DNA of 64,000 bases from Deltaproteobacteria bacterium (GTDB lineage Bacteria; Bdellovibrionota_C; UBA2361; J135): NCBI GenBank assembly GCA_020635175.1, contig JACKAH010000004.1, forward strand, positions 51,995-115,994, read 5' to 3'. The notes beneath the pieces were generated by a model. The model saw only the letters and a list, made by a program, of their open reading frames with translations, was not told the DNA's origin and ran no database searches. Position numbers and translations under genes: made by a program. Positions 36,280 to 52,169 of this stretch are shown here, one piece after another; position 1 is the first letter of the stretch; the number at the start of each line of letters is the position of its first letter.

Positions 36280-36336
36280 GTCCCCAAAATGATGCTTTAT
36301 TGAAGCGACTCAAGTACTTATCTGATCCACCTAAAA
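36280..36336 (-). promoter_or_regulatory. Conserved bipartite element upstream of an L gene (copy 1 of 4)
   Basis: The minus strand reads TTTTAGGTGGATCA-N38-GGGAC. Same 14-mer and same 38-nt spacing as the copies at 39338-39394, 51006-51062 and 52113-52169. A TTGAGT hexamer sits at spacer positions 10-15. Confidence 0.55.
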
Positions 36337-36410
36337 TTAATATTAGTTAAAAATACGAACAGTTCTTATTCAAATTGAGTTTTTAAAGAAGCGCGACTAA
36401 AAGGAAGGAG

Positions 36411-36451
36411 TAAGAAAAAATAGCACTAGCACACCTTAAAGTGTGCTAGTG
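36411..36451 (-). terminator. Rho-independent terminator after the first L-M-D triplet
   Basis: The minus strand has a perfect 11-bp stem CACTAGCACAC/GTGTGCTAGTG (36441-36451 pairing with 36424-36434) and a 6-nt loop, followed by CTATTTTTTCTTA. It lies 34 nt downstream of the stop at 36485. Confidence 0.75.
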
Positions 36452-36484
36452 AGCAATCAAAAAGTATCTTTAATCAGGTCTGAA

Positions 36485-37261
36485 CTAGAATTCCTTTAAC
36501 TGTAATTCATGCCCGCCTGAGGCTTCAGTTGTAACAACAGTATCAATAGTCACAACTCTGTCTGTAGGCTTAGGTGGCTCTACGGTCAGATTAACCTCTT
36601 TTAATACCTGAATAGACTTCTCAAGAATTCTAGCCTTTGTAACCAAGGCAGGAAGAATCTTGGCATAGTGCTGCTTAACCAGCTTCTTTTGATTAAGTAA
36701 GTTCTGGAGATTTGCAATCTCTGTCTTGATTTTACCAAGCTCGCCATCATTAGTATCAGGAGCTTCAGCTGTATGGCCCTCATCTATTGAAGGTTCGATC
36801 TGAGCATCTCCTGAAGCATCAAGTCTTTGTGGCTCTGATAACCCATCAGGTCCAGGCATTGCACTTGTCTCTACAGATTCCTTTGAGCTTAAATCTCTTG
36901 AGCTAGTACTTACCTGCTCAACTGAGGCAGTCAGAGAGGTAGTAGCTGCAATCTGAGTCGAGCTTGCTGTGATTGCTGCTTTCTTAGCTTGAAATTGCAA
37001 TTTCTTTATTCTTTTCTCTATCTGGCCAACGGTAGAGTCACAACCATTATCGATAGAATTTTGAACATTATTAATCGCTGCTGCTAAGTTACTCAGGTCA
37101 AAGCTTTCGACCTCCCCCAGCTTAAGATGATGATCTCCCTGGATAATCTGGTCAAGGAGCCCATAAACACCTTTCACAAAGCAGTTGCTGAACTCTGCAT
37201 TCGCAGCTGGAGCAACTAGGAGCGAGGCAAAAACTGAGGCTAAAATTATTCTCTTCTTCAT
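36485..37261 (-). CDS. Secreted protein, family D (my label): N-domain with 2 Cys, Ser/Thr-rich region, C-terminal coiled-coil-like segment
   Basis: Signal peptide MKKRIILASVFASLLVAPAANA/EF (ATG 37261, AAGAAGG upstream). Low-complexity ITASSTQIAATTSLTASVEQVSTSS. Heptad-like KIKTEIANLQNLLNQKKLVKQHYAKIL. Confidence 0.6.
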   Translation of the reverse strand: MKKRIILASVFASLLVAPAANAEFSNCFVKGVYGLLDQIIQGDHHLKLGEVESFDLSNLAAAINNVQNSIDNGCDSTVGQIEKRIKKLQFQAKKAAITASSTQIAATTSLTASVEQVSTSSRDLSSKESVETSAMPGPDGLSEPQRLDASGDAQIEPSIDEGHTAEAPDTNDGELGKIKTEIANLQNLLNQKKLVKQHYAKILPALVTKARILEKSIQVLKEVNLTVEPPKPTDRVVTIDTVVTTEASGGHELQLKEF

Positions 37262-37284
37262 AGCAAACCTTCTTATCTTTAAAA

Positions 37285-38049
37285 CTAACAAACCAAATCA
37301 GCAGCATCTGAACCAATGTAGTTTGGATCACCAGCTACACAAGGTCCACTTGGATTAGCAGCGTCGTTCTTATCAGCAACTGTTGCTGTAATCATCGCTA
37401 CTGCTTCACTAACATGATCCAACGTAGTAGAGGAAAGTGCTCCTAACGTAGCTGAATTTGATGCTATATAATCAAACATCGCAAAGAAGCTTCCTTTACA
37501 GACATAACCGTATAGGGCTTCAAACACGACTAGACTAAGAACGTCTTCAAACATTTCGTCGTTAGCTGCTTCTGCGGTTCCTGGCGCAACAGCAGGAAGT
37601 CCAAGTAATGCAGCTTGCTTGTTATTATAGTGATCAATAGCAGCCCAGATTAGGCGATTCATAGGATGCTTAAGAGTCTCTGAGAAATTATCCGGGTTAA
37701 CAAACGAACCGTGTCTAATTAGCTCTGCGAATCGAAAGGCTCCATAGACTTCAAATGCATCTAATGGATTTCCCGCTGCGCACCAAAACATATTATCAAG
37801 CTGAAGTGCGGCAGTTCGATACTTAGTCTCATAGTATATCTTATCATTTAGCCCAGGATCACAGCTCAAAAGTGTAGCTGTAGGCGTCCCAGCGCCATAG
37901 ATACACTGACCAGCACTACCTGAGTTATCAACCTTTGACAGCACGGAGAAGATAGACCACTCAGCAACTGCTACGTTTGATAGGCCCATTACGATAGTGC
38001 ATGCCAGGAAAGAATTTCTTAATAATGTTTTCATTGCTATTCTCTTCAT
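37285..38049 (-). CDS. Secreted six-cysteine protein, family M (my label)
   Basis: Signal peptide (MKRIAMKTLLRNSFLACTIVMGLSNVAVA/EW). Six Cys in the mature part, the last one being the C-terminal residue. NSGSAGQCIYGAGTP...LSC...WCAAGNP...VNPDN aligns with the other M proteins. Confidence 0.65.
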   Translation of the reverse strand: MKRIAMKTLLRNSFLACTIVMGLSNVAVAEWSIFSVLSKVDNSGSAGQCIYGAGTPTATLLSCDPGLNDKIYYETKYRTAALQLDNMFWCAAGNPLDAFEVYGAFRFAELIRHGSFVNPDNFSETLKHPMNRLIWAAIDHYNNKQAALLGLPAVAPGTAEAANDEMFEDVLSLVVFEALYGYVCKGSFFAMFDYIASNSATLGALSSTTLDHVSEAVAMITATVADKNDAANPSGPCVAGDPNYIGSDAADLVC

Positions 38050-38065
38050 CTTTGAACCTCTAAAA

Positions 38066-39214
38066 TTATTGAGCATTACCGCAATACATATCGAACGCGA
38101 GCAGAACCATCTTTGTAAACGGGTCTGATAATGTTAAAGGTTGGCCAGTAATCGGACTAATAGTTGTCCCAAGTCCAATCACATTCTCAACATTATGAAG
38201 CTTTCCAGTGGCATCCCGATGACACAAAGCGGTTGAAGGAAAGATTGGGTTGTAGCTAGCATCAACTGTGTAGCTTCCAATCGGTCCATAAAGAACCTCA
38301 ATGAACTCTTTCATTCCGACTTCACCAAAAACCTGTCCTGAACCGGCCCAAGCTTCGTAGCTAAAAACTTTAGCTGGGTGAGCGCTTGAAAGTGGATGCA
38401 ATGTAGTGTCTTTATGCAAAGTCCAAGGTCCAGCGATGGTGTCAGGATACTTACAGTACGTAGTCTGCACCGGTAATCCTGTGCCTGGGTCAATAATAGT
38501 TTGACCAGTAATAGGATCTACTTTATCTCCGATCTCATACAGGTTACAGATTGCAGCTAAAAGGAAGTTAAACATCGACTTAACGCAACCCCAATCTGGA
38601 CAAGCTGTGTATGGCCCAACAGCTTTTGCAAGCGAAATTGGATCTTGAAAAAGTGGATTTGACGGGTCAAGGTTTCTTCTAATGATACCGTAAGTAATCC
38701 CGGTTACAATTTTCTCAAGGTGACCATTAGCATGGTAACAATTTGAAGCAGAACCTGGTCCCTGTGTGATGGCCTCTGCCTCTTTACAGATGTAAGGGTT
38801 CTGAATATCTACCATCTTAGAAAGAAAGTCATCTGCTAACGCTACTAGCTTTCCTCCGTCGAGTTCCTCTCCAGGAATAACTGCACCCGGTAACAAATAA
38901 CCAGGGTCACATTCAACTCCAGAAGTAGCAACGGTTGACCAGATAGCTTGGGTCGCACCCATTTCAGCTATGCTAGTGTTTTCTAATAAAATCCCAGTCT
39001 GAGGATCCGAGCCACCAGTACATGTTGCTGTACCAACTGAGACATCAACATAATTTGGACCTGGAGGATCAAGAACTGTACAGGTATCAGTATTGCTACT
39101 TGCAGCAAACAGGGGACCAACATCTGGTAATCCCGGTTCACTTGATAACTGCGCGTTAGCTAGGCTTGTGAAAGTTAGTAAACAAGCACCAAAGGCGAGA
39201 ATATGTTTATTCAT
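38066..39214 (-). CDS. Secreted cysteine-rich protein, family L (my label)
   Basis: Signal peptide MNKHILAFGACLLTFTSLANA/QL. TDTCTV...ATCTGG...ICNLYE...YCKYPDT parallels the 35171..36151 product. Confidence 0.65.
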   Translation of the reverse strand: MNKHILAFGACLLTFTSLANAQLSSEPGLPDVGPLFAASSNTDTCTVLDPPGPNYVDVSVGTATCTGGSDPQTGILLENTSIAEMGATQAIWSTVATSGVECDPGYLLPGAVIPGEELDGGKLVALADDFLSKMVDIQNPYICKEAEAITQGPGSASNCYHANGHLEKIVTGITYGIIRRNLDPSNPLFQDPISLAKAVGPYTACPDWGCVKSMFNFLLAAICNLYEIGDKVDPITGQTIIDPGTGLPVQTTYCKYPDTIAGPWTLHKDTTLHPLSSAHPAKVFSYEAWAGSGQVFGEVGMKEFIEVLYGPIGSYTVDASYNPIFPSTALCHRDATGKLHNVENVIGLGTTISPITGQPLTLSDPFTKMVLLAFDMYCGNAQ

Positions 39215-39337
39215 AACAAAGCACCCAAAACAACCTTTCTTTTAAACTTTTAAGCTCTTACTAAAATACAAAGAAGCTGTCGTTTAGAGAGCAAAGCAAC
39301 TTCTATTCCCACTTGAGAGGTGGGGTTAGGGTACGTA

Positions 39338-39394
39338 GTCACTGAACAGATTAGTTCTATAAAGGAATCAATCGCTTAAATGATCCAGCTAAAA
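39338..39394 (-). promoter_or_regulatory. Conserved bipartite element upstream of an L gene (copy 2 of 4)
   Basis: The minus strand reads TTTTAGCTGGATCA-N38-GTGAC, with TTGATT at spacer positions 10-15. It lies 124-180 nt upstream of ATG 39214. Confidence 0.55.
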
Positions 39395-39445
39395 TGATTT
39401 CTTAGACAAAAATGGTGTTTTTTCTTAGATGGTTTTTTGAGGTTC

Positions 39446-42334
39446 TTATTTACTTATATCGAATCTATTGATGACACGATTAAGCTCAATTGTTACACGC
39501 TTAAATAATCTGTCCTTATATTGTGAGTAAGTTTCATTTCCAAGTCCTGCATATTTCTTTGTAATATGCACAAGGGTAATTCCCTCTCTAATAGGCTCAT
39601 TAATACACAGATCTGGATTTACTACTGTAAAGTTAGGTTCTCCATCTAATGGCGTGTTACAAGCTAGGCCAAATGTCGTGCAATCCTTACACATTGCATA
39701 TCGATAAGTATTAGCATCAGGAGTTACAGAAGCTAACGGTGGCTTTAGCCCATCAATTAAAACCTTCTTTTTATTCTCGTCAGTGCTGTTTAATGGGTAA
39801 TCATCTAGCACAACGACCACCTCAATCCCTTCATCCACCATCCGATGAGCCATCTGCACGGTTTCTTTAATAGAGCGGAAAAAAGGCACAGGATCTGGGT
39901 TATCAGCGAGCGCTCCGGCATTTACAGATAACACATCTGGAGTCGGAGGAGGTGGAAACCAAGCCCCATGAAATGTATCTCTTAATACCTGATATAGGCT
40001 TAGCTCTATCAATCCATTTGTAAAAATAACCGCGACCCGCTTTACTTTCTCTGGTTCGGGCACAAATGTTGTATTTGAAAAGACATTATACATATTGAGC
40101 AAAGCACCAGAGCTCAATGAATCTGTAGTTGTGTACTCACGCTTTGGGTACACGTTACTGCTTTCAACAGACCCCAAATATAAACTTCGAGCTCCTGTTA
40201 CGAGGTTAGAGTCATCAGTTGTGTCCAAAATACCGTACCCTGATTTAGAGAAACCCCCTGCCCTAATTGTAGACATCGCACTTGCAACGTTTAAATTAGT
40301 AGCATCCAGCGTATTCTCCATCGCTCCAGGAGTTGTTACATCAGGACAAATTCTATACGGATCCGTAATGTAATTAGTAGTTACCTCATCTCTGTTATAG
40401 CACTCGCCTGTAGGTAAGCCCGTCGTAGAACAGCCGGCAACAAACGGGTTTGGGGTTGCATTGATCCTATCTCTATCCATCCATGCAGGCATTTTTCCAT
40501 CTGTGAACGGAGGTTCATAACATGGGCTATTGAATGGACCACTGGTCGGAGATAATGGGTTAGGATTCGGCCATAGTGAATCTTTATTATCATTTAAAAC
40601 TGCAACAGTGTTGCTTCTTTGATCACCAAAGCAGTCCCCTGATCTAATATTTACAGATGCTGGAAAATCCTTAGGTGGGTTTGCACTATCAAGGGAGTTA
40701 TTAGTAACTGGAGCCCAAGAGGGGCTAGATCTAAAAATAAAATTCAGCAAATTCCTATCTAAAGTTGGTATCTGATGTTTAGTTGGGTCAGCACACTGAG
40801 TCGATGGAGCAACACTAGTAGTTAAATCATAAAAATTTGGTAAGGCCGTAAAGATCTGCACATCGGGTCCTGGAAGCGCATCTGGCCTTATATCTAAAGA
40901 CATTTCACGAGCACAGATACTCATCGGCTGAAGCAACCTATCAAATGCAGCTTGACGAGTAAGTTGTTGGTAGTCTTCGTAAGTTGATGGATCAGTCGTA
41001 TCTACAGGTAAGAGATCCGTATTTCCAAATTCCTGTAATATATAATCCTTACCTGTAAGGGAGCCTTGAAAAGCTCCTGGCGAAGGCCCAAGAGTTGGAA
41101 GTTTTAGAGTCGTGCGCTCATCCCCAGCAAAAGCAGCAGGCATTCCACCACTATATCTATCCTCATAAGAGATAAGTGGCATTAATGGAATAATCCAATT
41201 GCTATAGGTAAATGCACCAAATGGAACTTGATCTCGCTCAAGCATATACATGAATTGCTGTGCAACTCTTTGAGTCCAAAGCTTGTGCGGTCCAAAACAT
41301 CTGTAGGCAAGCTCAGTTTGAGTCATGACACCATGTCGATATTTATACTGCGCTGGAATGGTACTAGCCCAAGCTCTAGTAAAAGGACCTCCGTCCATCC
41401 GTGGGATATACTGCATAGGATCGGGTGGAATTGTCCCAGCGTAGGACGAGGATTGTAAATGGCTAATCGTCTGCGGCACAACATCTGGGTAAGACTGAAG
41501 ATAAGCAGTTGCTTTATCAGAGGGCACTAAAGTAGAGATCACAACGTCCTGTGTCGGTACCCCATTTCCATTTACGCCCATGGTAATCTCTTTCGTCGCA
41601 AATGGAGTGATATAACTTGGGTCAGGAGGAGGTCCTGCTCCTAAAAAAGCAGGTGGTATCCCCGGCAGATAGGATTCATAAAGCATCGGCAAACCCCTAT
41701 CTTCAAGCAGCTGATCCTGTACAGAGGTAAGCGCTCCCCCTGCATCTGAGTGAGCAAAGTGAGTCGGGGGAATTTCGTAGTCAAAAATTCTATAACTTGG
41801 AGAAGAAAAATCCACTCCAACCATCGCAACAGGTGGTTTTTTAACGGCACAACCCTCAGCCCCTCCTATATAAGGGGTAGTTGATAGTAGATTTGTAAAG
41901 TTAAACTGTGCCCTACAGTTATCAAGCTCAATACAGAGCTCAGCTCCTTTAATTGTAACTGCGTTAATTACCTCGTCAGTATACGTAACCTTTATATCGC
42001 AGATATGATCATTGTTCTTAAATCCAATATCATTCCAACTGAAGTTTGTGGTTGGGCAATTTGCTAGCGGGATATTAAAATCTAACCCTAGGTGCTGACA
42101 CGCTACCTGAACCATGTCCGCTTGAGCTGGGCCAACATTTGACGCTGCATTTAGAGCGCTAATTATTGCATTATTAAGACGTGTGCGTGTAGTTAAAACC
42201 TCGGCAGATTTAATTGTCATCATGCCGTAGACAAAAAGCAGCAGAAAACCTATCAGGAAAAAGAAAATTACATAACCCGCGCCGCTTTCTTCACGTGAAC
42301 TTCTAAGCTTATTTAAAACTCTAAGTCTATTCAT
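39446..42334 (-). CDS. TadG-like giant pseudopilin (962 aa) with a split, MIDAS-degenerate vWA-like domain (module A)
   Basis: TadG-type N-terminus ESGAGYVIFFFLIGFLLLFVYGMMTIKSAEVLTTRTRLNNAIISALNAAS. vWA beta1-like PPVAMVGVDFSSPS (Asp at aa 175) and beta4-like RVAVIFTNG (aa ~773), separated by ~600 aa. Paralogue of 43896..46817. Confidence 0.65.
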   Translation of the reverse strand: MNRLRVLNKLRSSREESGAGYVIFFFLIGFLLLFVYGMMTIKSAEVLTTRTRLNNAIISALNAASNVGPAQADMVQVACQHLGLDFNIPLANCPTTNFSWNDIGFKNNDHICDIKVTYTDEVINAVTIKGAELCIELDNCRAQFNFTNLLSTTPYIGGAEGCAVKKPPVAMVGVDFSSPSYRIFDYEIPPTHFAHSDAGGALTSVQDQLLEDRGLPMLYESYLPGIPPAFLGAGPPPDPSYITPFATKEITMGVNGNGVPTQDVVISTLVPSDKATAYLQSYPDVVPQTISHLQSSSYAGTIPPDPMQYIPRMDGGPFTRAWASTIPAQYKYRHGVMTQTELAYRCFGPHKLWTQRVAQQFMYMLERDQVPFGAFTYSNWIIPLMPLISYEDRYSGGMPAAFAGDERTTLKLPTLGPSPGAFQGSLTGKDYILQEFGNTDLLPVDTTDPSTYEDYQQLTRQAAFDRLLQPMSICAREMSLDIRPDALPGPDVQIFTALPNFYDLTTSVAPSTQCADPTKHQIPTLDRNLLNFIFRSSPSWAPVTNNSLDSANPPKDFPASVNIRSGDCFGDQRSNTVAVLNDNKDSLWPNPNPLSPTSGPFNSPCYEPPFTDGKMPAWMDRDRINATPNPFVAGCSTTGLPTGECYNRDEVTTNYITDPYRICPDVTTPGAMENTLDATNLNVASAMSTIRAGGFSKSGYGILDTTDDSNLVTGARSLYLGSVESSNVYPKREYTTTDSLSSGALLNMYNVFSNTTFVPEPEKVKRVAVIFTNGLIELSLYQVLRDTFHGAWFPPPPTPDVLSVNAGALADNPDPVPFFRSIKETVQMAHRMVDEGIEVVVVLDDYPLNSTDENKKKVLIDGLKPPLASVTPDANTYRYAMCKDCTTFGLACNTPLDGEPNFTVVNPDLCINEPIREGITLVHITKKYAGLGNETYSQYKDRLFKRVTIELNRVINRFDISK

Positions 42335-42337
42335 CGA

Positions 42338-43015: not shown

Positions 43016-43196
43016 TGACTTATTGATGAAAAAGTGAATTCTTTCGATTCACTATCTCAGATTTTAATCTATTGCGGAAGTTAAGAGTTTGCAGCGAGGA
43101 TTTGAGCTAAGTCTATAAATATCTACAAGATTTTGTTCTGTCGCACTATATAGATTGATTTTCAAAATACGATATTTTATTAGCAATGATAGAATC

Positions 43197-43789: not shown

Positions 43790-43792
43790 ATT

Positions 43793-43808
43793 TACACATA
43801 TATGTGTA
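43793..43808. promoter_or_regulatory. Perfect 16-bp palindrome, candidate HicB operator
   Basis: TACACATATATGTGTA, ending 4 nt upstream of the hicA ATG. A TTGCAA hexamer lies just upstream in the direction of transcription. Confidence 0.5.
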
Positions 43809-43895: not shown

Positions 43896-46817
43896 CTACT
43901 TACTTGGTTTAAAGCGATGTATGATTCGATTAAGCTCAATTGCAACTCGATGAAAAATTCTTTGCTGGAACTCAGAGTAATTTTCATCATCTGCCCCGCC
44001 AGGATTATACAGCTTAGAGACACGCACTAGATCTATTCCTGCTCGAGTGTGTTTCTTATGACAGGTTTCAGGAGTCGTAGATGAGATAGCAGGTTCTCCA
44101 TCTAATTGAGCACTACAATCAAGTCCAAAGTAATTACAATCCTTACAAATTGCATATGCATAGCTACTATTAGTGGCAGCTGCCCTACCAATTGGCTCTC
44201 TCAATCCATCAATAAATACTTTGCGCTTATTTTCATCAGCTGCATTGGTTGGATAATCGATCATTACGATTACTACCTCGATTCCATCATCTACCATGCG
44301 ATGAATGACCTGGAGAGATTCCTTTACGGCTCGTATGAATGGCGCTCCATCAGGTTCCTGTACAGCCTGGCCAGCTCTAACTGGAAGTACATCTGCGACG
44401 GGCTCATTTGGAAACCAAGCACTATGGTGCCTCCCATCAAGCACATCGTACATACTCAGATTACTAACACCGTCGGTAAAAAGAACTGCAACACGCTTAA
44501 CATCATTAGGATTCGGTGAAACACCTGTTGAACTGTTTAAGATATTATAAGCATTTACCAATGCTCCGGAGGTAAAGTCATCGACCAAAGGTTCACGCTT
44601 TGGATAGACATTTAAGCTCTCAACAGATGTAAGATAAAGATCTCTCGCGTTCGGCGTTAAGTCAGGAATCGAAGGCGAGGTCCTAGGAAGATCTATCGGG
44701 TATCCAGACTTAGTGAATCCACCAGCACGTAAAGCAGAGAGTGCAGAGGCTGCATTTAAATTACTTGGATTTAATGTTGTATCAATTGCAGTTAAGTCAG
44801 AGCAAACTCTAAAGGGGTTAGTTACATCTGATGGCACAACCTCGTCACGATTGTAACAGGCGTTATCTATGCCACCAGTTTGAGTATTACACCCAGTTGC
44901 GTTTGAAACCTGAGCATCGTTTCTATCTCGAGACATATAAGGAGGAATTCTCTGTCCAATTGTCACCCAAGTATTAACAAAACATGGGCTTAATCTATTA
45001 TATGGTGGATTTAGATCTGGTTGAGGCAAAAGAGAATCTTTACCATCAGGTGTTTGAACAGTTCCAAACAAAATTGACATCTGATCTCCAAAACAATCAC
45101 CAGGATAAATTTCATTGGCAGTAACCTCAATACTTCCACCATTTGGAATACCATTTGCGTATTCAGGTAGGTCGTCGTCTTCATTTGAGGTAGTTAACCA
45201 GTTCTTATTAGAGCGAAAGACAAAATTTAATAGTCCTCTCTCAAGTGTTGGAATTTGATGTTTTGAGTTATCAGCGCAGACAGTGTTTGGTTCAAGTACG
45301 CGACTATAATCAAATGCATCAGGTAAAGCTGAAAACGCATGTAGCCCAGGTCTTACCTCATGATTCATCTCCCTTGCACAGATAGTCATGGGCTGAAGGA
45401 TTCTATCAAATGCACTCTGCCGATTCAGAGCTGTGTAGTTTTGATAGTTAGCTGGCAAGCCATCATCCGTAGTATCCGTTGGTAATGCATCGGTATTACC
45501 AAACTGCTCAGCAACAAAATCTCTGCCATTTAAGGTTCCCGGTAGAGAAACCGGATTGGGACCAAGAGTGTGTACATCTAAGGTACTATATATATCAGCT
45601 CCATTTGTTGTACTGTATGTTCCCCACTCCCCACCTGATCTAATCTCATATGGTACAAGTGGCATAATCGGCATAATCCAGTTGCTGTATGCTAAAGCTC
45701 CAAATGGAATCTCATTATCATCTAACATATACATAAACTGCTGAATCATGCGCTGATACCAAAGCTTATGTGGTGCAAAACAACGCTGCGCTAACTCATT
45801 CTGAGTCATCACACCGTGGCGATATTTATAATTCGTATAGTTAGGTTGCTGCTCAGCCCAAGCTTTTGTCTTATTTCCACCATTTATACCTGGAATATAC
45901 TGAACCGGATCTGGTGGAAGAGGAGCGGCATAGGTACTTACGTTACCGTAGCCCTCAGTTTGGGGAACAACATCCGGCATAGATTGTAGATATGCAGAGT
46001 TGATAGTCGACAGTGAAAGAATCGTGTCACCAACTGAGTCAACACCATTTCCGCCAGGCATTGTGATCTCTTTTCTAGAGAATGGCAGATCATATGGAGT
46101 GTATGGACCAGCTACTCCTACCGCTCCAGGAAATGAAATCTGCTGTGTCGGTAAATAAGAGTCGTACATAAATGGAAGAGATCGATCGATTAAAAGATCC
46201 TCTTCCGCTGAAGTTAACACCGGATATCCCGCATCGGAGTGTAAAAAAGGAGGTGGTGTGGTATCTGAATTAAAGGCTTTAACTATAGACCTAGAGTAGT
46301 CTGCCATAATCATCACAACCGGTGGCTTTTTTTCCATACACTGCTCAGCGCCAGCTATGTAGGGGTTGCTGCTTAAGTACTGCAGAAATGTGAAAGTCGA
46401 TTTGCAATTATCAATCTTAAGGCAAGCTTCTTCAGGTTGAATATTTCCAGGGACAATATTTCGGGGTGTATATGTGAAATTAACATCACATTTATAACGT
46501 CCATCATTAAATCTAGCTTCACTAAGTGGGAATGAAGCAGTGCTACAATCGATTGAACCTAAATCAAATCTAGTCTTTAGTTGATTGCAAGTGATTCGCT
46601 GCATCTCAGAGCTGTTTGTCGCTCCATTTGCAACCGCGTTTAATGTTGAAGCAACAAAATTATTCAACTCTAAACGGGTTGTGTACATCTGCTCGGTTTT
46701 GAGCACAATCATCCCGTACATAAAGAGCACGGTAAAGCCAATCAAAAAGAAGATAAGGATAAAACCTTGTTGCTTCTTAGAAAATTTTGCACCTTCATTT
46801 TTCTGCTTGTAGCTCAT
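43896..46817 (-). CDS. TadG-like giant pseudopilin (973 aa) with a split vWA-like domain retaining MIDAS-type residues (module B)
   Basis: N-terminus KQQGFILIFFLIGFTVLFMYGMIVLKTEQMYTTRLELNNFVASTLNAVANG. PPVVMIMADYSRS (DxSxS, Asp at aa 173) and RVAVLFTDG (Asp at aa 782). Strongly conserved central block shared with 39446..42334 (KYRHGVMTQNELAQRCFAPHKLWYQRMIQQFMYML...). Confidence 0.65.
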   Translation of the reverse strand: MSYKQKNEGAKFSKKQQGFILIFFLIGFTVLFMYGMIVLKTEQMYTTRLELNNFVASTLNAVANGATNSSEMQRITCNQLKTRFDLGSIDCSTASFPLSEARFNDGRYKCDVNFTYTPRNIVPGNIQPEEACLKIDNCKSTFTFLQYLSSNPYIAGAEQCMEKKPPVVMIMADYSRSIVKAFNSDTTPPPFLHSDAGYPVLTSAEEDLLIDRSLPFMYDSYLPTQQISFPGAVGVAGPYTPYDLPFSRKEITMPGGNGVDSVGDTILSLSTINSAYLQSMPDVVPQTEGYGNVSTYAAPLPPDPVQYIPGINGGNKTKAWAEQQPNYTNYKYRHGVMTQNELAQRCFAPHKLWYQRMIQQFMYMLDDNEIPFGALAYSNWIMPIMPLVPYEIRSGGEWGTYSTTNGADIYSTLDVHTLGPNPVSLPGTLNGRDFVAEQFGNTDALPTDTTDDGLPANYQNYTALNRQSAFDRILQPMTICAREMNHEVRPGLHAFSALPDAFDYSRVLEPNTVCADNSKHQIPTLERGLLNFVFRSNKNWLTTSNEDDDLPEYANGIPNGGSIEVTANEIYPGDCFGDQMSILFGTVQTPDGKDSLLPQPDLNPPYNRLSPCFVNTWVTIGQRIPPYMSRDRNDAQVSNATGCNTQTGGIDNACYNRDEVVPSDVTNPFRVCSDLTAIDTTLNPSNLNAASALSALRAGGFTKSGYPIDLPRTSPSIPDLTPNARDLYLTSVESLNVYPKREPLVDDFTSGALVNAYNILNSSTGVSPNPNDVKRVAVLFTDGVSNLSMYDVLDGRHHSAWFPNEPVADVLPVRAGQAVQEPDGAPFIRAVKESLQVIHRMVDDGIEVVIVMIDYPTNAADENKRKVFIDGLREPIGRAAATNSSYAYAICKDCNYFGLDCSAQLDGEPAISSTTPETCHKKHTRAGIDLVRVSKLYNPGGADDENYSEFQQRIFHRVAIELNRIIHRFKPSK

Positions 46818-46823
46818 CTGCTT

Positions 46824-47501
46824 TTATCTCTTTGGAACAAAGACCCCTGACTCATTAAACTTTCCATACCAAAGAAAGATTCGATACGTACCTCTACAAG
46901 CCCAAACAAAATATGGAGCGTACTCAAAGTAGACCGGATATACTTCATTGCTAGACGGCGTTGGCATAACATCACGATCTAAAATGTATTCAGTCTCTTT
47001 AGGATTAAGCACTGTTCCTTTAACCTTATCATAGTATTCAAAGGCCTCAGTTCTTAAACTTTCAAGAGTAGTGCCAGCTGACGGGGCAGCAACCGATGGG
47101 ACACAAAAATTATCAGGATTTGATGAGCTTAAGACTCTTCCAAAATTAGCTGGATCTGTTGTTTCAACATCCAAGTAACAGATCGTAATTTTACAAGTTA
47201 TCTTAGATGAATTTCTGTAGAGCGTTGAACCAAAGTTCATGTTATGTGCTAGATTTGCCTCTAACTCGTCAACTAACTCTTGATGAACATTTGCCTCAGT
47301 GAATTTTACTAAATCACCACCAACATTTGTTGTAAAAGCTTCGAGGGTAGGAGTTGTAAAGACCGAGAAGACAGAAGAGTTAACGGTCCTACGAATATCC
47401 TCCATACCGTGCAAACCTAATATTCCATTTAAGACGGCAAGCAAAACAACGAAAGTAACTAAAACCTCAATCACGGCAGAGCCTGGCTCTTGCCTTTTCA
47501 T
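46824..47501 (-). CDS. TadE-like pseudopilin, second type (module B)
   Basis: MKRQEPG/SAVIEVLVTFVVLLAVLNGILGLHGMEDIRR carries a G/XXXXE-type processing motif. The start at ATG 47501 was chosen by homology with 42338..43015; the track ORF extends to 47567 (GTG). Confidence 0.6.
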   Translation of the reverse strand: MKRQEPGSAVIEVLVTFVVLLAVLNGILGLHGMEDIRRTVNSSVFSVFTTPTLEAFTTNVGGDLVKFTEANVHQELVDELEANLAHNMNFGSTLYRNSSKITCKITICYLDVETTDPANFGRVLSSSNPDNFCVPSVAAPSAGTTLESLRTEAFEYYDKVKGTVLNPKETEYILDRDVMPTPSSNEVYPVYFEYAPYFVWACRGTYRIFLWYGKFNESGVFVPKR

Positions 47502-47577
47502 CTTGACGCAAATGGATCTAACTATCTGTAACATAGTGAAACAATAAGCCATTACTGTGCGCAACACTATATCAAAT

Positions 47578-48171
47578 TTATATAACGTTCATCTCAGAAC
47601 TAGCTGTATGACACACTGTGTGAGAATGTAAAAAGATTGATGGTGGCCGTACACATACTTGCCACTGAGAACATGCATCTGAGCTTTGACAGTTAGCTGC
47701 ATTCTCTCTAACAGTACTTCCTGGGTCAGAGCATTCGCGTGGAACTATCACTACCTCACCCTCTTTTATACTCTCAGTGTTGAGATCCCAGTTTACCGCT
47801 GTCTTTACCTTATTTCCAAAGACACGTTGCGCTTCACCTAATGCTAAGTTTATCACCCTTCTTTTTTGAGCTTGCATGCGTCCGCCACAATAGCTCATTA
47901 AATAGCTATCATCTTGAGAAGATACTGGAAGCTTTAATAAGCCTAACACAGGAGCGCTCCCAGTTTTATCATTAGGTCGCTCTGCAATGCTTACTCTAGC
48001 AGCTGTCATGGCGACCCACTGCGCAGCAGATGAGTATCTAGAGATTGAGATAAAATCAAAAGCTGAGAATATAATTGTCGAGATAAACACAAATGAGATT
48101 GCAGCCCCAATTGTGTATGCACCACGCTCGTTCGAAAACATTTTACTACCCATATTATTTTGACCCGACAT
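47578..48171 (-). CDS. TadE/TadF-like pseudopilin (module B), 197 aa
   Basis: FSNERGAYTIGAAISFVFISTIIFSAFDFISISRY...AMTAARVSIA. Paralogue of 32480..33091 along its whole length, including the C-terminal Cys pattern. Confidence 0.6.
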   Translation of the reverse strand: MSGQNNMGSKMFSNERGAYTIGAAISFVFISTIIFSAFDFISISRYSSAAQWVAMTAARVSIAERPNDKTGSAPVLGLLKLPVSSQDDSYLMSYCGGRMQAQKRRVINLALGEAQRVFGNKVKTAVNWDLNTESIKEGEVVIVPRECSDPGSTVRENAANCQSSDACSQWQVCVRPPSIFLHSHTVCHTASSEMNVI

Positions 48172-48178
48172 CTTTATT

Positions 48179-48403
48179 CTAATGTATCTCTACTGAATTT
48201 GCAGCTACTGCGCCTCTTATCAAAGCTGAAGGATATGCTGCTGTCGCGTTAACAAAGCTTTGCTTCTGGCGTTTATCAAAGTCTGTTAACGCATTTTTAA
48301 TCGCTGGAAAGCCAGATAACGCAACTAAAGTAATCATAGCAGCTACAAGCATAAACTCTGAAGCGATTGAACCTCTTTCATTTCGTCTCTTTAAACTTTC
48401 CAT
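48179..48403 (-). CDS. Flp-like prepilin (module B), 74 aa
   Basis: MESLKRRNERG/SIASEFMLVAAMITLVALSGF fits the Flp leader plus G/XXXXE[YF] motif and hydrophobic core. AGGGGA upstream of ATG 48403. Confidence 0.6.
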   Translation of the reverse strand: MESLKRRNERGSIASEFMLVAAMITLVALSGFPAIKNALTDFDKRQKQSFVNATAAYPSALIRGAVAANSVEIH

Positions 48404-48446
48404 AAATTTATCCCCTAAACTTAAGCGTGCTTTAATCAAGTTCTAA

Positions 48447-49148
48447 CTACTGTGAAATCACATGAATCTCTGCACTATCATCAATTCTAACTCTACCGTC
48501 AGCATCATCCTGACCTGCAACTGGCTTTTGTAATCTCTCTAAGTTGTAAAGCATCATCTCAAAGATAGCTTTATACTGAGACATAGTAGAAACAGTTGGT
48601 CTATTACTGCCGCTGTCTCCATTCCCATCAGGGTCAGTAGTACTTTCACCGTCATTTGGATTAATTATTGTATTAAGACTATCTGAGCGATCCAAGGTTT
48701 TTGAAGCTCTATCACTTAAGCTATCCGCTGTTCTTTTAGTGCTGCTTGAAGTATCAGCTTCAAGACTAACTTGCATAGTGTTCGGCGAACGTAAAGCAGA
48801 CTCTGCGCCACCATCATCGTCAGAAACGACCATTGGAGCAGCTGGCCCAGTACAGGTATACATTTCAGCCATGAAATCTTTGACCTGTTGAATCGTATTA
48901 TCCAATACCTGCTGATTTGGGTTTTGAGAAAATGTTAACGAAGCATACTGATATGAAAGATATCGCATGATGTAGTTAAGCCACTCAGGCGAACATGGAG
49001 CTGGCCTAGGCACTGCTGTTGCTGAGCCAAATGGGCCTGCAACTTGCGTAGCGCTCACCCCAGGCTGCACTGAAGACTGGGCATAGACACTAAGTGTTAA
49101 AAGCCCTTGTAGAATAAAACCTAAAACTAATACCTTTTTCATTTTCAA
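48447..49148 (-). CDS. Secreted protein, family D (my label)
   Basis: Signal peptide MKMKKVLVLGFILQGLLTLSVYA/QS. Two-Cys N-domain, a Ser/Asp/Thr-rich low-complexity middle, and a helical segment followed by an acidic tail. Confidence 0.6.
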   Translation of the reverse strand: MKMKKVLVLGFILQGLLTLSVYAQSSVQPGVSATQVAGPFGSATAVPRPAPCSPEWLNYIMRYLSYQYASLTFSQNPNQQVLDNTIQQVKDFMAEMYTCTGPAAPMVVSDDDGGAESALRSPNTMQVSLEADTSSSTKRTADSLSDRASKTLDRSDSLNTIINPNDGESTTDPDGNGDSGSNRPTVSTMSQYKAIFEMMLYNLERLQKPVAGQDDADGRVRIDDSAEIHVISQ

Positions 49149-49178
49149 CCTCTAATCAAGACAACTAAAATTTAAACC

Positions 49179-49979
49179 TTAAGGCAAACAGTACAAACTC
49201 TTTAAAAAACCGTTCCACATATATGGAGAGTACGTAAAGTAGTGTGTAGCTTGATCGTCACAAACACCATCTGCTCCCTGATCAAAGATCTGATTTAGCA
49301 CAGACAAAACTGTTGGTGCTTCCCATGTATTGTTAAACCAAATCGTTGGATTTGAATGCATAATCTTTAGGATCTTAACGAAATCAGGATACTGACAAGT
49401 GTCTTCTGGTAAGGCAGTAGTTCTAGAAAGATAGAACTGCTCTGCTGCACGAAGAGTGTAGTTAATTTCGTTATTCCAATCTAATGGCCTAGCTTCATTA
49501 TTATAAATCTCTTCAGGAGTTGCATAGTTATCTCCAGGATTGTGAATCTTATAAACTGCAGAAGCGACCATAAATAATAATGGGTGAACAATCTGATTGT
49601 TATTTGGATCAACTCTGACATCCCAACGAATTGCGCCAAAGGTTTGCCAAACGGAAGCTAACGCGCGGTATGGCATTAACTGACCAAGAGCTGTTGATTT
49701 TGTGCAATCAAGTAAAGGGTTATTAACATTCATCTGTAGTGTGCGCGTCTCAGCATCTTGCGCAACCACGTTGCCTACAGCAACACAATCAAGAGTTGAG
49801 GTTTGTCCTGTTTGTGGGTTAGCAACTTCACAAGCGCCAGGCAATCCACCTTGTGTGTTCATCGTAATCTGATCAGCAGTGCTTGTGATATCATCAAGCG
49901 TACCCGCTGAGACACTAAATGGTGCTGTGATTGATAGAATTAAAGCTAATTTATAAAACTTACAAAACATCTTCTTCAT
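49179..49979 (-). CDS. Secreted six-cysteine protein, family M (my label)
   Basis: Signal peptide ...LILSITAPFSVSA/GT. Six Cys in the mature part, the last 3 residues from the C-terminus. GACEV...LDC...LDC...VDPNN...TCQYPD aligns with the other M proteins. Confidence 0.6.
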   Translation of the reverse strand: MKKMFCKFYKLALILSITAPFSVSAGTLDDITSTADQITMNTQGGLPGACEVANPQTGQTSTLDCVAVGNVVAQDAETRTLQMNVNNPLLDCTKSTALGQLMPYRALASVWQTFGAIRWDVRVDPNNNQIVHPLLFMVASAVYKIHNPGDNYATPEEIYNNEARPLDWNNEINYTLRAAEQFYLSRTTALPEDTCQYPDFVKILKIMHSNPTIWFNNTWEAPTVLSVLNQIFDQGADGVCDDQATHYFTYSPYMWNGFLKSLYCLP

Positions 49980-50019
49980 TTTTCTACCCTTATTATTAAA
50001 ACCTTTTTAACCTCTAAGC

Positions 50020-50913
50020 CTAAATACACACTGCATTAGCTATGTAGTACTGTAATCCAAGCGTACTGAACCAAGTTTGGTAGTTCTGTGCTGTGACACC
50101 GTTGCAAGCACCGTTCAATGGATCAAAGAGAACTTTAGCTGCAACCTCTAGACAACTTTCACCTGAGCCTGGTGTACAATCTTTCAAATCAAGTTTGTTC
50201 TTAATTACTGAATCAGGACTATTAAGATCAGCAGCGACATTTAAGAGTAAGCGATTCATGTCTGAAGATTTACAGATTATCTTTTCAGCAAATGCACTCT
50301 GTTGATTAGTTTCGACAAAGTAAATGAACTGCATCAAATCAGCGAAAAGTTGTGCTAGCGAGCTGTAATCACAAGCTGCGCCACAATTTGAAAAGTGATC
50401 AGCATCTGCAAATAAGCCTACGCCAAGTGCTTTCTCTGCGGTTTGCCGAAGTGCATGCCAGCGCACATCTAGGCATGATTCAGGTGATGTAACACAGCCT
50501 GGGTTTTGCTCATTGTTAAATTGGCCAAAGAAAGCAGTGGCAAGACTTGCAAAGATTGAACGAGCATCACCCGCTAAAGCATCAACCGTAACTATGTTTA
50601 AAAGCGGATAGCCCTCAACACAGCTAGCACCGTATAAAAATGGAGCATTTAAACCGGAAACAGCAACCGACACTAAGGCACCAATCACACCAGCATCCTG
50701 AGACTGAGTAGCACCTTCACATTGGCGATAAAAATTGTTGCTACTTGCTGCGATTTGAAGACTAATAGAGTTACTTGTTGAGAGTTCGCAAGTATCAGGA
50801 GAAACCGCATTAGTTGAATATATATCACCTAAGTTAAACGGTGCTGCATACGCAGAAGCAACTGAAATTGCCTGTATTAAGAGGATGACCGAGAAGCGTT
50901 TAAAACTAGCCAT
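50020..50913 (-). CDS. Secreted twelve-cysteine protein, family L (my label)
   Basis: Signal peptide MASFKRFSVILLIQAISVASAYA/AP (ATG 50913). Twelve Cys at positions alignable with the neighbouring paralogue 51112..52008 (PDTCEL...RQCEG...SCVEGYP...). Confidence 0.65.
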   Translation of the reverse strand: MASFKRFSVILLIQAISVASAYAAPFNLGDIYSTNAVSPDTCELSTSNSISLQIAASSNNFYRQCEGATQSQDAGVIGALVSVAVSGLNAPFLYGASCVEGYPLLNIVTVDALAGDARSIFASLATAFFGQFNNEQNPGCVTSPESCLDVRWHALRQTAEKALGVGLFADADHFSNCGAACDYSSLAQLFADLMQFIYFVETNQQSAFAEKIICKSSDMNRLLLNVAADLNSPDSVIKNKLDLKDCTPGSGESCLEVAAKVLFDPLNGACNGVTAQNYQTWFSTLGLQYYIANAVCI

Positions 50914-51005
50914 TATATTACCCCACAATAAACCAGAAACACATAAACTAAACATAAGACAGTGCAAAACTCGTGCTACAAAATGTGGGAAATCATCCCA
51001 CTTTT

Positions 51006-51062
51006 GTTACTAAAACAAACCTTTCCCAAGTAAATACAGCTAACTACCTGATCCACCTAAAA
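51006..51062 (-). promoter_or_regulatory. Conserved bipartite element upstream of an L gene (copy 3 of 4)
   Basis: The minus strand reads TTTTAGGTGGATCA-N38-GTAAC. Four nt further on comes the hairpin GTGGGA-N5-TCCCAC (50985-51001). Confidence 0.55.
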
Positions 51063-51111
51063 AAACCCCTTAAATTAAAATGGTAACTTTTCGTAGATTT
51101 TGCAACAGAGC

Positions 51112-52008
51112 TTAGAAGTAGTTGCAAACTGCATCAGCTAAATGAGGTGGCAACTGATAAACAGATTGCCAGTTTGTGTAGACACCAAACCCATCACGCT
51201 CACAAGCTCCACCTAGATCAAAGAGATTTCGAACAACAAGTTCTGCACAACTCTCTGTGTATCCAGCACTACACGCTTTGAAATTAAGCTCTGTATTGAC
51301 GATTGAGTTTGGATTTTGAAATGCCTGATGCATCCTAAAATAGGTTTCATTTACATCATTTGACTGACATTCAATTCTGTTATTGTTTGGACTTAGCTGG
51401 TCCGTCACAACAAAAAACGAAAACTGTAGAACCTCTGCAAAAACTCTCGATCGTTGCTCTTCATCACAATTGACACTACAGCTTTCGTAGTAGCTCGGAT
51501 CCCCATGTAGCGCCTGTCCTAACATATGATCCGCTACTTGACGCTGAAAGGAATAGGTCGCTTCTGTGCAACTTTCTAAGTCATTTAGACAGTTAGTAGT
51601 GTTAGATTCATTTAAAAATTGGCCCTGAAATGCAGTGGAAATGCTTGCAAAAATCGAACGAACATCACCTAACATACCGTTAAAAGTGGCGATGTTTTCA
51701 ACCGGATAGCCTTGAAAACAGCTAGAACCAAATGTGTGTGCAGCCTTATATCCTGCTGACATTACTGTAACCATGGCAGTAGCTGCGCCAGCATCCTGTA
51801 AAAGAGTCTGTCCTTCACAACTTTTATCGAAACCGTTAGCAGAGCCAAAGACATTGCTAACTCTATTATTTGCTGAAAGCGTACAACTGTCCTGCAAGGA
51901 TGAATACTCTAGTGAGCTTCCTAGATTTAGTGGCAAAGCAAACGAACTATTAGAAAGACAACAAAGTTGAGCAGCTAAAAAACCAGACAACAAAAGTAAC
52001 CGTGTCAT
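51112..52008 (-). CDS. Secreted twelve-cysteine protein, family L (my label)
   Basis: Signal peptide MTRLLLLSGFLAAQLCCLSNSSFA/LP (ATG 52008). Twelve Cys in the mature part (QDSCTL...KSCEG...SCFQGYP...). Paralogue of 50020..50913. Confidence 0.65.
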   Translation of the reverse strand: MTRLLLLSGFLAAQLCCLSNSSFALPLNLGSSLEYSSLQDSCTLSANNRVSNVFGSANGFDKSCEGQTLLQDAGAATAMVTVMSAGYKAAHTFGSSCFQGYPVENIATFNGMLGDVRSIFASISTAFQGQFLNESNTTNCLNDLESCTEATYSFQRQVADHMLGQALHGDPSYYESCSVNCDEEQRSRVFAEVLQFSFFVVTDQLSPNNNRIECQSNDVNETYFRMHQAFQNPNSIVNTELNFKACSAGYTESCAELVVRNLFDLGGACERDGFGVYTNWQSVYQLPPHLADAVCNYF

Positions 52009-52112
52009 ATTTAAACCCCATAACAAAAATAGCACGCCACAACACACATCCACAGGTATCTAGAGAACAAGCAATTCTCATACTCATAAATGCGGGAAAA
52101 AATCCCACGCAT

Positions 52113-52169
52113 GTTACCAAATCGCTTGATTCTTAAATGATATCAAAAGGCTGCGTGATCCAGGTCAAA
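52113..52169 (-). promoter_or_regulatory. Conserved bipartite element upstream of an L gene (copy 4 of 4)
   Basis: The minus strand reads TTTGACCTGGATCA-N38-GTAAC, with TTGATA at spacer positions 10-15. Four nt further on comes the hairpin GTGGGA-N5-TCCCGC (52092-52108; the U-G wobble preserves pairing). Confidence 0.55.

What the first reader, a model, noticed from the sequence alone, without database searches (positions are those of the whole stretch)
36280..52169. Identical bipartite 57-nt cis element in front of all four L genes
**Seen on the minus (coding) strand.** The pattern is TTT(T/G)A(G/C)(G/C)TGGATCA - exactly 38 nt - G(T/G)(A/G)AC. It occurs at:
- 36336..36280
- 39394..39338
- 51062..51006
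- 52169..52113

That is one copy in each long intergenic gap preceding an L gene (A6, A3, B2, B1), with the distal box about 135-185 nt upstream of the preferred start codons.

Three of the four spacers carry a TTGA(T/G)(A/T) hexamer at the same register (spacer positions 10-15). I did not see the 14-mer in the other intergenic regions that I read.

**Inference.**
- It is a shared operator or promoter architecture that places every L-M-D unit under one regulator or alternative sigma factor.
- The invariant GATC core raises the possibility of methylation-sensitive control.
- No candidate regulator gene is present in the window.
Basis: seen in the sequence. Interest (0 to 1): 0.65.

Follow-up and report, generated by a model that had tools for sequence, protein, structure and literature searches.

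The report
Shared 137-bp control region before L genes
Four very diverged copies of an unknown secreted-protein gene each keep the same ~137-bp upstream DNA module, most likely an activator-binding region joined to a sigma-54-type promoter; this is an ordinary kind of shared control region in front of extraordinarily orphan genes.

Summary
The pattern TTTKASSTGGATCA-N38-GKRAC occurs exactly four times, all on the minus strand, once before each L gene; shuffles gave zero matches.

The 57-mer is only part of a larger module. Anchored on the 14-mer, the four regions align without any indel from about -37 to +99. There are 21 further invariant columns against 2.8 expected. These include an invariant TTGC(A/T) exactly 38 nt after GKRAC, where conservation stops abruptly. 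Flanks are at chance. The L proteins themselves are only 18-38% identical.

There is no conserved RNA fold and no Rfam hit, so this is a DNA-level protein-binding module.

My best reading:
- The 3' end (G-N-A-N6-TTGCW) is a sigma-54-type -24/-12 promoter.

This is suggestive, not proven. Two copies have AG instead of GG at -25/-24, and all four score below validated promoters.

The GATC/methylation idea has no support. The only HTH gene nearby is a HicB antitoxin.

Neither the element nor the L family has a relative in the public collections searched.

The parts
36237..36373 (-). Module A6: conserved region from pos -37 to +99 (pos 0 = first T of the 14-mer), upstream of L-A6.
   Evidence: Ungapped four-way alignment. 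This copy has a 1-nt indel in the upstream block only.
39295..39431 (-). Module A3, starting 15 nt after the stop codon of the 962-aa gene.
50963..51099 (-). Module B2, starting 13 nt after the stop codon of L-B1.
52070..52206 (-). Module B1, starting 22 nt after the stop codon of the acyl-CoA synthetase gene.
36323..36336 (-). 14-mer TTTTAGGTGGATCA (A6), the most conserved box. Proposed activator site, about -110..-97 from the inferred transcription start.
39381..39394 (-). 14-mer TTTTAGCTGGATCA (A3).
51049..51062 (-). 14-mer TTTTAGGTGGATCA (B2).
52156..52169 (-). 14-mer TTTGACCTGGATCA (B1).
39366..39378 (-). IHF-like core in A3. The + strand reads AATCAATCGCTTA, a perfect WATCAANNNNTTR. The same register in A6 (36308-36320) and B1 (52141-52153) matches 12/13. 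B2 (51034-51046) matches poorly.
   Evidence: and the sequences. Perfect matches occur at chance frequency in the window (5 found against 4.8 expected), so this is a lead only.
36280..36284 (-). GKRAC box in A6 (GGGAC), part of the conserved TTYRGKRAC. The same box is at 39338-39342, 51006-51010 and 52113-52117.
36235..36252 (-). Sigma-54-like -24/-12 element in A6: GGGAATAAATGTTGCACG.
   Evidence: Invariant G, A and TTGC. PWM score 5.3 bits, rank 41 of 127,966 positions.
39293..39310 (-). Sigma-54-like -24/-12 element in A3: GGGAATAGAAGTTGCTTT.
   Evidence: PWM score 6.3 bits, rank 29.
50961..50978 (-). Sigma-54-like -24/-12 element in B2: TAGCACGAGTTTTGCACT.
   Evidence: One mismatch to TGGCACGNNNNTTGCW. 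PWM score 14.0 bits, rank 4.
52068..52085 (-). Sigma-54-like -24/-12 element in B1: GAGTATGAGAATTGCTTG. This is the weakest of the four.
   Evidence: PWM score -1.6 bits, rank 390.
50985..51001 (-). GC-rich hairpin GTGGGA-TGATT-TCCCAC followed by a T-rich tail, between GKRAC and the -24 box of B2. Probably the terminator of L-B1.
   Evidence: -14.3 kcal/mol, z = -5.1.
52090..52112 (-). Hairpin ATGCGTGGGA-TTTTT-TCCCGCAT at the same place in B1. Probably the terminator of the acyl-CoA synthetase gene.
   Evidence: -10.7 kcal/mol, z = -3.3.
36424..36451 (-). Strong intrinsic terminator (12-bp stem plus T run) after the D gene and upstream of module A6. A6 is the only module with no internal hairpin.
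35171..36151 (-). L-A6 gene with revised start: GGGAGAG ribosome-binding site, then ATG, then a signal peptide.
38066..39214 (-). L-A3 gene.
50020..50913 (-). L-B2 gene with revised start, heading the L-M-D-s-T-U-V run of genes.
51112..52008 (-). L-B1 gene with revised start. This equals NCBI MCB9029983.1 (298 aa).

Best explanation
Each L gene is headed by one copy of an old, paralogous ~137-bp transcription-control module that works as double-stranded DNA bound by proteins.

**Proposed layout.**
- The promoter proper is the last conserved box, G-N-A-N6-TTGC(A/T). I read it as a sigma-54-type -24/-12 element. That puts the transcription start about 12 nt further on (near 36226, 39284, 50952, 52059) and gives 5' UTRs of about 39-75 nt.
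- The 14-mer (centred about -100) and/or the upstream block (about -130) would bind an unidentified sigma-54 activator (bEBP) encoded elsewhere in the genome.
- The YAR-N4-TTGATW stretch just after the 14-mer is an IHF-like bending site.
- The invariant spacing (14-mer, 38 nt, GKRAC, 38 nt, TTGC) puts the three main boxes about 43 bp, or four helical turns, apart, so on one face of the helix.
- In the B modules a terminator hairpin for the upstream gene is nested between the enhancer and the promoter. This insulates the L promoter from read-through.

**What is shown and what is inferred.**
- Shown: the module, its extent, its exact register, its restriction to L genes, and the absence of a conserved RNA structure.
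- Inferred: sigma-54, the activator, IHF and the start sites.

The confidence given applies to the sigma-54/enhancer reading. That this is a shared DNA-level transcription-control region I hold at about 0.85.
For: **The module is real and under selection.**
- The bipartite pattern is found 4 times against 0 expected.
Flanks are at chance: 2 of 163 and 4 of 161 columns.
- There is no indel from the 14-mer to TTGC in any copy.
- Re-registering the copies at random never reproduces the 7 invariant downstream columns.
- Pairwise module identity is 40-58% in all six pairs, so this is not recent gene conversion. The L proteins are only 18-38% identical and barely detectable as homologues.

**It acts as DNA, not RNA.** The consensus fold is -0.43 kcal/mol and there is no Rfam hit.

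**Support for sigma-54.**
- All six invariant bases of the last box coincide with consensus bases of TGGCACG-N4-TTGCW at the correct spacing: -24 G, -22 A, -15..-12 TTGC. Position -11 is A/T in all four. Conservation ends there.
- B2 is one of only two sites in the window with at most 1 mismatch (0.56 expected). The other lies in the gap before flgE, a classic sigma-54 target.
- With a PWM built from 29 ChIP-supported Salmonella sites (PMC3844500, Table 3), flgE ranks 1, B2 ranks 4, A3 ranks 29 and A6 ranks 41 of 127,966 positions.
- No sigma-70-type -35/-10 pair is detected in any module.
- Conserved boxes 85-150 bp upstream fit the usual EBP-site distance. In Desulfovibrio most sigma-54 promoters lie within 100 nt of the nearest EBP site (PMC4641369).
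- Hairpins with T tails sit upstream of the putative promoter in B2 and B1. A6, which has its own upstream terminator, lacks one.
Against: - B2 and B1 have AG, not the near-invariant GG, at -25/-24. None of the 29 Salmonella sites used has A there.
- All four sites score below the training range (16.1-23.5 bits). B1 scores -1.6 bits, rank 390.
- With 4 mismatches to the consensus, A6, A3 and B1 are individually no better than chance sites (76 sites with at most 3 mismatches, 79 expected).
- I chose the register after seeing the TTGC box.
- No rpoN gene and no EBP gene is in the window or the 9.7 kb of flanks I could fetch.
- The IHF-like match occurs at chance frequency in the window, and it lies next to the 14-mer rather than midway to the promoter.
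- Only four sequences from one genome exist. No orthologous loci could be found for an independent test.
Confidence: 0.42

Rival explanations
1. The core promoter lies inside the 57-mer and is read by a sigma-70-family alternative (ECF-like) sigma factor. GKRAC (GTAAC/GTGAC/GGGAC) or the GAA/TTYRG boxes would serve as the -35/-10-type elements, with the start just downstream of GKRAC. The hairpin would be a leader attenuator, and TTGC an operator or leader element.
For: - GTAAC-like motifs resemble the 'AAC' -35 motif of ECF promoters (my own knowledge).
- The B hairpins look like terminators or attenuators and would lie in the leader.
- The sigma-54 fit is imperfect.
Against: - No conserved partner element lies 16-18 nt downstream of GKRAC. 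Those columns are variable.
- The hairpin is absent in A6 and weak and shifted in A3.
- This model leaves the invariant G-N-A-N6-TTGCW box, and the sharp end of conservation there, unexplained.
Confidence: 0.2
2. A sigma-70 promoter using the TTGAKW hexamer as the -35 element, activated from the adjacent 14-mer by a class I/II activator.
For: - TTGAGT, TTGATT and TTGATA are good -35 hexamers at one register in three of the four copies.
- The 14-mer ends 9 nt upstream, a plausible activator position.
Against: - The hexamers 17 nt downstream (ATTTTG, TGTTCA, GTTTTA, GATTTG) lack the key A2/T6 of a -10 element.
- The sigma-70 scan finds nothing in any module.
- B2 has CTGTAT in place of the -35 hexamer.
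- This model does not explain about 45 further conserved bases downstream.
Confidence: 0.1
3. An epigenetic (Dam-type) switch. Methylation of the single GATC in the 14-mer competes with regulator binding, giving phase-variable or mutually exclusive expression of the four L paralogues. This would be an overlay on any of the promoter models.
For: - GATC is invariant in the most conserved box and is the only GATC in each of the four gaps.
- L, M and D carry signal peptides and have diverged fast, as expected of variable surface proteins.
Against: - GATC is common and unremarkable in the window (281 copies).
- Each module has one site only, unlike the two-site pap switch or three-site agn43 switch (my own knowledge).
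- No methyltransferase gene is in the window.
- Invariance of GATC is explained just as well by its being part of a 7-bp invariant TGGATCA.
Confidence: 0.07
4. A transcribed cis-regulatory RNA leader (riboswitch or attenuator) shared by the L mRNAs.
For: - The long conserved stretch lies upstream of the start codons.
- B2 and B1 have stable hairpins with U tails.
Against: - There is no consensus structure (-0.43 kcal/mol; 4 predicted pairs).
- There is no Rfam family hit.
- The hairpin is not conserved in A6 or A3.
- Conservation is in short blocks with invariant spacing, not in paired segments.
Confidence: 0.05
5. A dispersed intergenic repeat or site-specific recombination site that shuffles L cassettes, unrelated to transcription.
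For: - There are four direct copies flanking cassette-like paralogous genes.
- One public assembly contig breaks exactly at 52113, the end of the GKRAC box.
Against: - No copy of any sub-block occurs elsewhere in about 74 kb.
- No recombinase gene is nearby.
- Pairwise identity of 40-58% is too low for a mobile repeat.
- There are no terminal inverted repeats and no conserved hairpin.
Confidence: 0.03

Closest known systems
Sigma-54 (RpoN) dependent promoters with upstream activator sequences and an IHF site (for example glnAp2, nifH, Pu, flagellar and type IV pilin promoters).
   Same: - A -24/-12-like box with GC at -13/-12, the TTGCW motif, G at -24 and A at -22.
- Conserved boxes 85-150 bp upstream.
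- An IHF-like core between or next to them.
- 5' UTRs of tens of nucleotides.
- Downstream genes that encode cell-exterior proteins, a typical sigma-54 theme (PMC4641369).
   Different: - Two of the four copies have AG instead of GG at -25/-24, and PWM scores are below validated sites.
- The 14-mer has no obvious dyad symmetry, whereas typical EBP sites are inverted repeats (my own knowledge).
- The spacing is absolutely invariant across old paralogues, which is stricter than usual.
- The activator and rpoN have not been seen.
Paralogous promoter families of multigene surface-protein systems (shared upstream regions of duplicated fimbrial or adhesin operons).
   Same: The same control region is retained in front of each diverging paralogue, and the coding parts evolve much faster than the control region.
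   Different: - The proteins here have no recognisable family at all.
- Conservation is in discrete boxes rather than a recently duplicated block.
Dam-dependent phase-variation switches (pap, agn43).
   Same: A GATC embedded in a conserved regulator-binding box upstream of surface-protein genes.
   Different: There is a single GATC per module, no Lrp- or OxyR-like site is recognised, and no dam gene is in view. Nothing beyond the tetramer itself points this way.

Membership tests
Sigma-54 -24/-12 promoter | GG at -25/-24 and GC at -13/-12, separated by exactly 10 bp. | tested here: inconclusive
   GC is present in all four copies. GG at the right spacing is present in A6 and A3. B2 and B1 have AG.
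Sigma-54 -24/-12 promoter | Overall match to validated promoters (PWM score in the range of known sites). | tested here: not met
   Scores are 14.0, 6.3, 5.3 and -1.6 bits, against 16.1-23.5 bits for the 29 Salmonella training sites. Three of the four are nevertheless in the top 0.03% of window positions.
Sigma-54 -24/-12 promoter | The organism encodes RpoN and at least one EBP. | not testable with these tools
   Neither is in the window or the flanks, and the rest of the MAG could not be reached. The only indirect hint is a near-canonical TGGCAAGCCACTTGCA before flgE.
Sigma-54 -24/-12 promoter | Transcription starts about 12 nt downstream of the GC and depends on an activator ATPase. | not testable with these tools
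   This needs 5' end mapping and genetics.
Sigma-54 enhancer (UAS) | Conserved activator site(s) roughly 70-150 bp upstream of the promoter, usually with dyad symmetry. | tested here: inconclusive
   Conserved boxes are centred at about -100 (the 14-mer) and about -130 (the upstream block). Dyad symmetry is only partial: GAAAA-N7-TTTTC in B1, and GGATCA..TGATnC.
IHF binding site | WATCAANNNNTTR core. | tested here: inconclusive
   A3 matches 13/13, A6 and B1 match 12/13 in the same register, and B2 is poor. Perfect matches in the window are at chance level: 5 found against 4.8 expected.
Sigma-70 promoter | TTGACA-like and TATAAT-like hexamers 16-18 bp apart. | tested here: not met
   No promoter-like site lies inside any of the four modules.
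Known cis-regulatory RNA (Rfam) or conserved RNA leader | Covariance-model hit or conserved secondary structure. | tested here: not met
   No Rfam hit at gathering thresholds. RNAalifold consensus -0.43 kcal/mol.
Dam-methylation phase switch (pap/agn43 type) | Two or more GATC sites inside competing regulator sites, plus a GATC methyltransferase. | tested here: not met
   There is one GATC per gap. No methyltransferase gene is in the window. The methylation state itself cannot be tested here.
Dispersed repeat / regulon-wide motif | Further copies elsewhere. | tested here: not met
   No further copy of the module or of any sub-block occurs in the window plus 9.7 kb of flanks. An 18-base skeleton gave only 21 and 21 isolated hits in the species-representative genome collection and in the metagenome collection. 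All have strongly negative scores at the other module positions. The rest of this genome remains unscanned.

The most novel reading that the evidence does not exclude
The module is a fixed-geometry nucleoprotein platform: boxes about 43 bp apart on one helix face, with spacing invariant to the base across paralogues whose proteins have diverged beyond BLAST recognition. It would be read by a lineage-specific regulator dedicated to a wholly orphan secreted-protein system. The single invariant GATC in its strongest box would act as an epigenetic toggle that selects which of the four L paralogues is expressed.
Probability: 0.08. Interest if true: 0.6.

Novelty: new member of a known kind. Interest (0 to 1): 0.3.

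Why it matters
**On its own terms.** The element is an ordinary thing: a shared promoter and regulatory region retained by duplicated operons.

**Practical value.**
- It marks the real transcription units and real start codons of a ~20-kb block of genes that have no homologues anywhere (families L, M, D, s, T, U and V).
- It shows that these genes are under tight common control.
- It gives a ready-made probe, the 14-mer or the whole module, for pulling down the regulator and scanning the complete genome for the rest of the regulon.

**If the sigma-54 reading holds.** It would tie an unknown cell-surface system to an enhancer-dependent, signal-gated promoter. It would also provide natural examples of functional AG variants at -25/-24.

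Tried and rejected
- **RNA element.** Rfam at gathering thresholds found nothing. RNAalifold found no consensus fold. Rejected.
- **Sigma-70 promoter.** The consensus scan found nothing in the modules. By eye I also tried sigma-28 (TAAA-N15-GCCGATAA), sigma-32, Bacillus sigma-B-like, ECF (GAAC..CGTC) and Bacteroidetes -33/-7 patterns. None had both halves falling on conserved columns.
- **DnaA box.** GGTGGATCA matches TGTGNAWAA at 7/9 in two copies and 6/9 in the other two. I judged this to be chance.
- **HTH_3 protein as the regulator.** Rejected: it follows a HicA toxin ORF and is a HicB antitoxin.
- **Orthologous loci for phylogenetic footprinting.**
  - L-B1 found only itself.
  - The L profile found only the four L proteins among 1.84 billion representatives.
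  - The 973-aa protein found only its paralogue and one 2.9-kb Dadabacteria fragment with no L-like neighbour.
  - Cluster look-up showed no allelic variants.
  - DNA skeleton scans of the genome and metagenome collections returned only chance hits. The source MAG is not among the species representatives.
- **Flank extension.** Two look-ups added 6 kb and 3.6 kb, with no new module and no regulator.
- **L structure prediction.** Mean pLDDT was 46, which is unusable, so I ran no fold search.
- **Functional annotation of the L-V proteins.** Pfam, NCBIfam, PHROGs, PADLOC and PDB searches gave nothing.
- **Helical periodicity.** The strongest period is about 43 bp, but it is only marginal (permutation p about 0.05).
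- **Barrios et al. 1999 frequency table.** The paper is not held. I used Salmonella ChIP sites instead.

Full report
**Observation.**
- The bipartite pattern TTTKASSTGGATCA-N38-GKRAC occurs exactly four times in the 64-kb window. None of 100 shuffles produced a match.
- Allowing two mismatches in the 14-mer adds only chance-level hits, and none has fewer than two mismatches.
- Each copy sits in the gap immediately upstream of one of four ORFs, the 'L' genes.
- The TTGAKW hexamer at spacer positions 10-15 is present in three copies, as stated.

**The element is larger than reported.**
- I anchored the four regions on the 14-mer (pos 0 = its first T) and read them without gaps. Conservation runs from about pos -37 to pos +99 and then stops.
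The 160-nt flanks on either side have 2 and 4 invariant columns, against about 3.9 expected.
- The most striking new box is an invariant TTGC followed by A/T. It lies exactly 38 nt after GKRAC in all four copies, so the architecture is 14-mer, 38 nt, GKRAC, 38 nt, TTGCW with no indel. Random re-registration of the copies never reproduces this.
- Upstream of the 14-mer there is another block (TAnGAA, CCATTTT, CTAA). It is ungapped in three copies and shifted by one base in A6.
- Pairwise identity across the module is 40-58% for all six pairs, against about 14-39% in the flanks. The similarity is therefore old and maintained by selection, not by recent conversion.
- The downstream proteins have diverged much further. 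B1 and B2 are 38% identical. A3 and A6 are 22% identical (E = 3e-6). B against A6 is detectable only by profile comparison (E = 0.008), and B against A3 is not detectable.

**DNA or RNA?**
- Rfam finds nothing in the window.
- RNAalifold gives essentially no consensus structure, -0.43 kcal/mol.
- Strong hairpins exist only in B2 (-14.3 kcal/mol, z = -5.1) and B1 (-10.7 kcal/mol, z = -3.3). A3 has a weak, shifted one, and A6 has none.
- The B hairpins have T-rich tails and lie downstream of co-directional genes that have no other terminator. A6, which lacks one, is preceded by a separate 12-bp-stem terminator at 36451-36424.
- I therefore read the hairpins as terminators of the upstream genes, lodged in a variable part of the module. 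The conserved boxes I read as protein-binding DNA.

**Which promoter?**
- No sigma-70-type -35/-10 pair is found in any module. The hexamers 17 nt after TTGAKW are not -10-like.
- The last conserved box fits the sigma-54 consensus TGGCACG-N4-TTGCW. The six invariant bases are G(-24), A(-22) and TTGC(-15..-12), position -11 is A/T in all four, and conservation ends there.
- B2 (TAGCACGAGTTTTGCA) is one of only two sites in the window with at most one mismatch (0.56 expected). The other, TGGCAAGCCACTTGCA, lies in the gap before flgE, a classic sigma-54 target.
- I built a PWM from the 29 intergenic ChIP-supported Salmonella sites in Table 3 of PMC3844500. With it, the flgE site ranks 1, B2 ranks 4, A3 ranks 29, A6 ranks 41 and B1 ranks 390 of 127,966 positions.
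- Against this reading, every L site scores below the training range (16.1-23.5 bits). B2 and B1 have AG in place of the nearly invariant GG. I also chose the register after seeing TTGC.
- The reading implies starts near 36226, 39284, 50952 and 52059, with UTRs of about 39-75 nt ahead of start codons that have a ribosome-binding site and a signal peptide (36151, 39214, 50913, 52008). The B1 start agrees with the NCBI call.
- It also explains why the longest-ORF 'starts' ATG 36244 and TTG 50967 fall on the TTGC box. They are promoter bases, not start codons.

**The 57-mer in this picture.**
- It would be the enhancer half of the module. The 14-mer is centred about 100 bp, and the upstream block about 130 bp, before the inferred start. 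These are normal distances for activator sites: in Desulfovibrio most sigma-54 promoters lie within 100 nt of the nearest EBP site (PMC4641369).
A3 is perfect, A6 and B1 match 12/13, and B2 is poor. Perfect matches occur at chance frequency in the window, so this is a lead only.
- The three main boxes are about 43 bp apart, or four helical turns. That period is the strongest in the conservation profile, but only marginally so.

**Regulator and methylation.**
- No sigma factor, EBP or DNA methyltransferase is encoded in the window or in the 9.7 kb of flanks I could retrieve.
- The only HTH protein (43197-43604) follows a HicA toxin ORF and is a HicB antitoxin.
- GATC is unremarkable: 281 copies, observed/expected 1.2 by composition and 0.82 by Markov model. 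Each gap has one GATC, the one in the 14-mer. Its invariance is explained by its lying inside an invariant TGGATCA.

**Distribution.**
- The source is a MAG labelled 'Deltaproteobacteria bacterium' (locus tags H6619_). The same sequence occurs in two Logan assemblies from one study.
- The L family consists of its four members only, among 1.84 billion representative proteins. No allelic variants exist.
- The 973-aa protein has only its paralogue and one Dadabacteria fragment.
- An 18-base skeleton of the module gave 21 hits in the species-representative genome collection and 21 in the metagenome collection. All are isolated and all score strongly negative at the other module positions, so they are chance.
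- No further copy of any sub-block occurs in about 74 kb of this genome.

**Verdict.** This is a new instance of a familiar kind of element. What is unusual is the complete orphan status of the genes it controls and the base-exact spacing kept across very old paralogues.

Noticed in passing
window 32480-52053 (minus strand): An ~20-kb block of 18 genes falls into seven paralogous families: L x4, M x3, D x3, s x2, T x2, U x2 and V x2. Most have signal peptides or N-terminal hydrophobic segments.

- None has a Pfam, NCBIfam, PHROGs, PADLOC or PDB match.
- The L family has no member outside this genome among 1.84 billion representatives.
- Only V (962 and 973 aa) has one outside relative, a Dadabacteria fragment.
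- GC content is the same as in the surrounding DNA.
   Followed up: partly
window 43197-43789 (minus strand): A HicA toxin (61 aa, 43607-43789) and a HicB/HTH_3 antitoxin (135 aa, 43197-43604) are inserted between the two U-V gene pairs. A palindrome ACACATATATGTGT lies just upstream.
   Followed up: yes
window 58540-58557 (+): A near-canonical sigma-54 promoter, TGGCAAGCCACTTGCACT, lies about 190 nt upstream of flgE (58748-60016). It is the best-scoring sigma-54-like site in the window.
   Followed up: partly
window 36244 and 50967: The longest-ORF start codons of L-A6 (ATG 36244) and L-B2 (TTG 50967) fall on the conserved TTGC promoter box. Public gene calls with extended N-termini (357 aa, and the Logan 311/313-aa versions) are probably too long.
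   Followed up: yes
window 52113 / L045 position 1: One Logan contig (SRR12358676_21656) ends exactly at 52113, the last base of the GKRAC box of module B1. This may be an assembly accident, or it may hint at sequence heterogeneity in the module.
   Followed up: no
window 7044-12740 (+): A single 1898-aa ORF combines a TamB domain, POTRA repeats and an Omp85 barrel. This would be a fused TamB-TamA-like protein.
   Followed up: no
window 24838-32246 (minus strand): Directly downstream of the L block lies an operon resembling alternative complex III: a multihaem cytochrome c (219 aa), a molybdopterin/4Fe-4S subunit (1008 aa) and NrfD-like membrane subunits.
   Followed up: no
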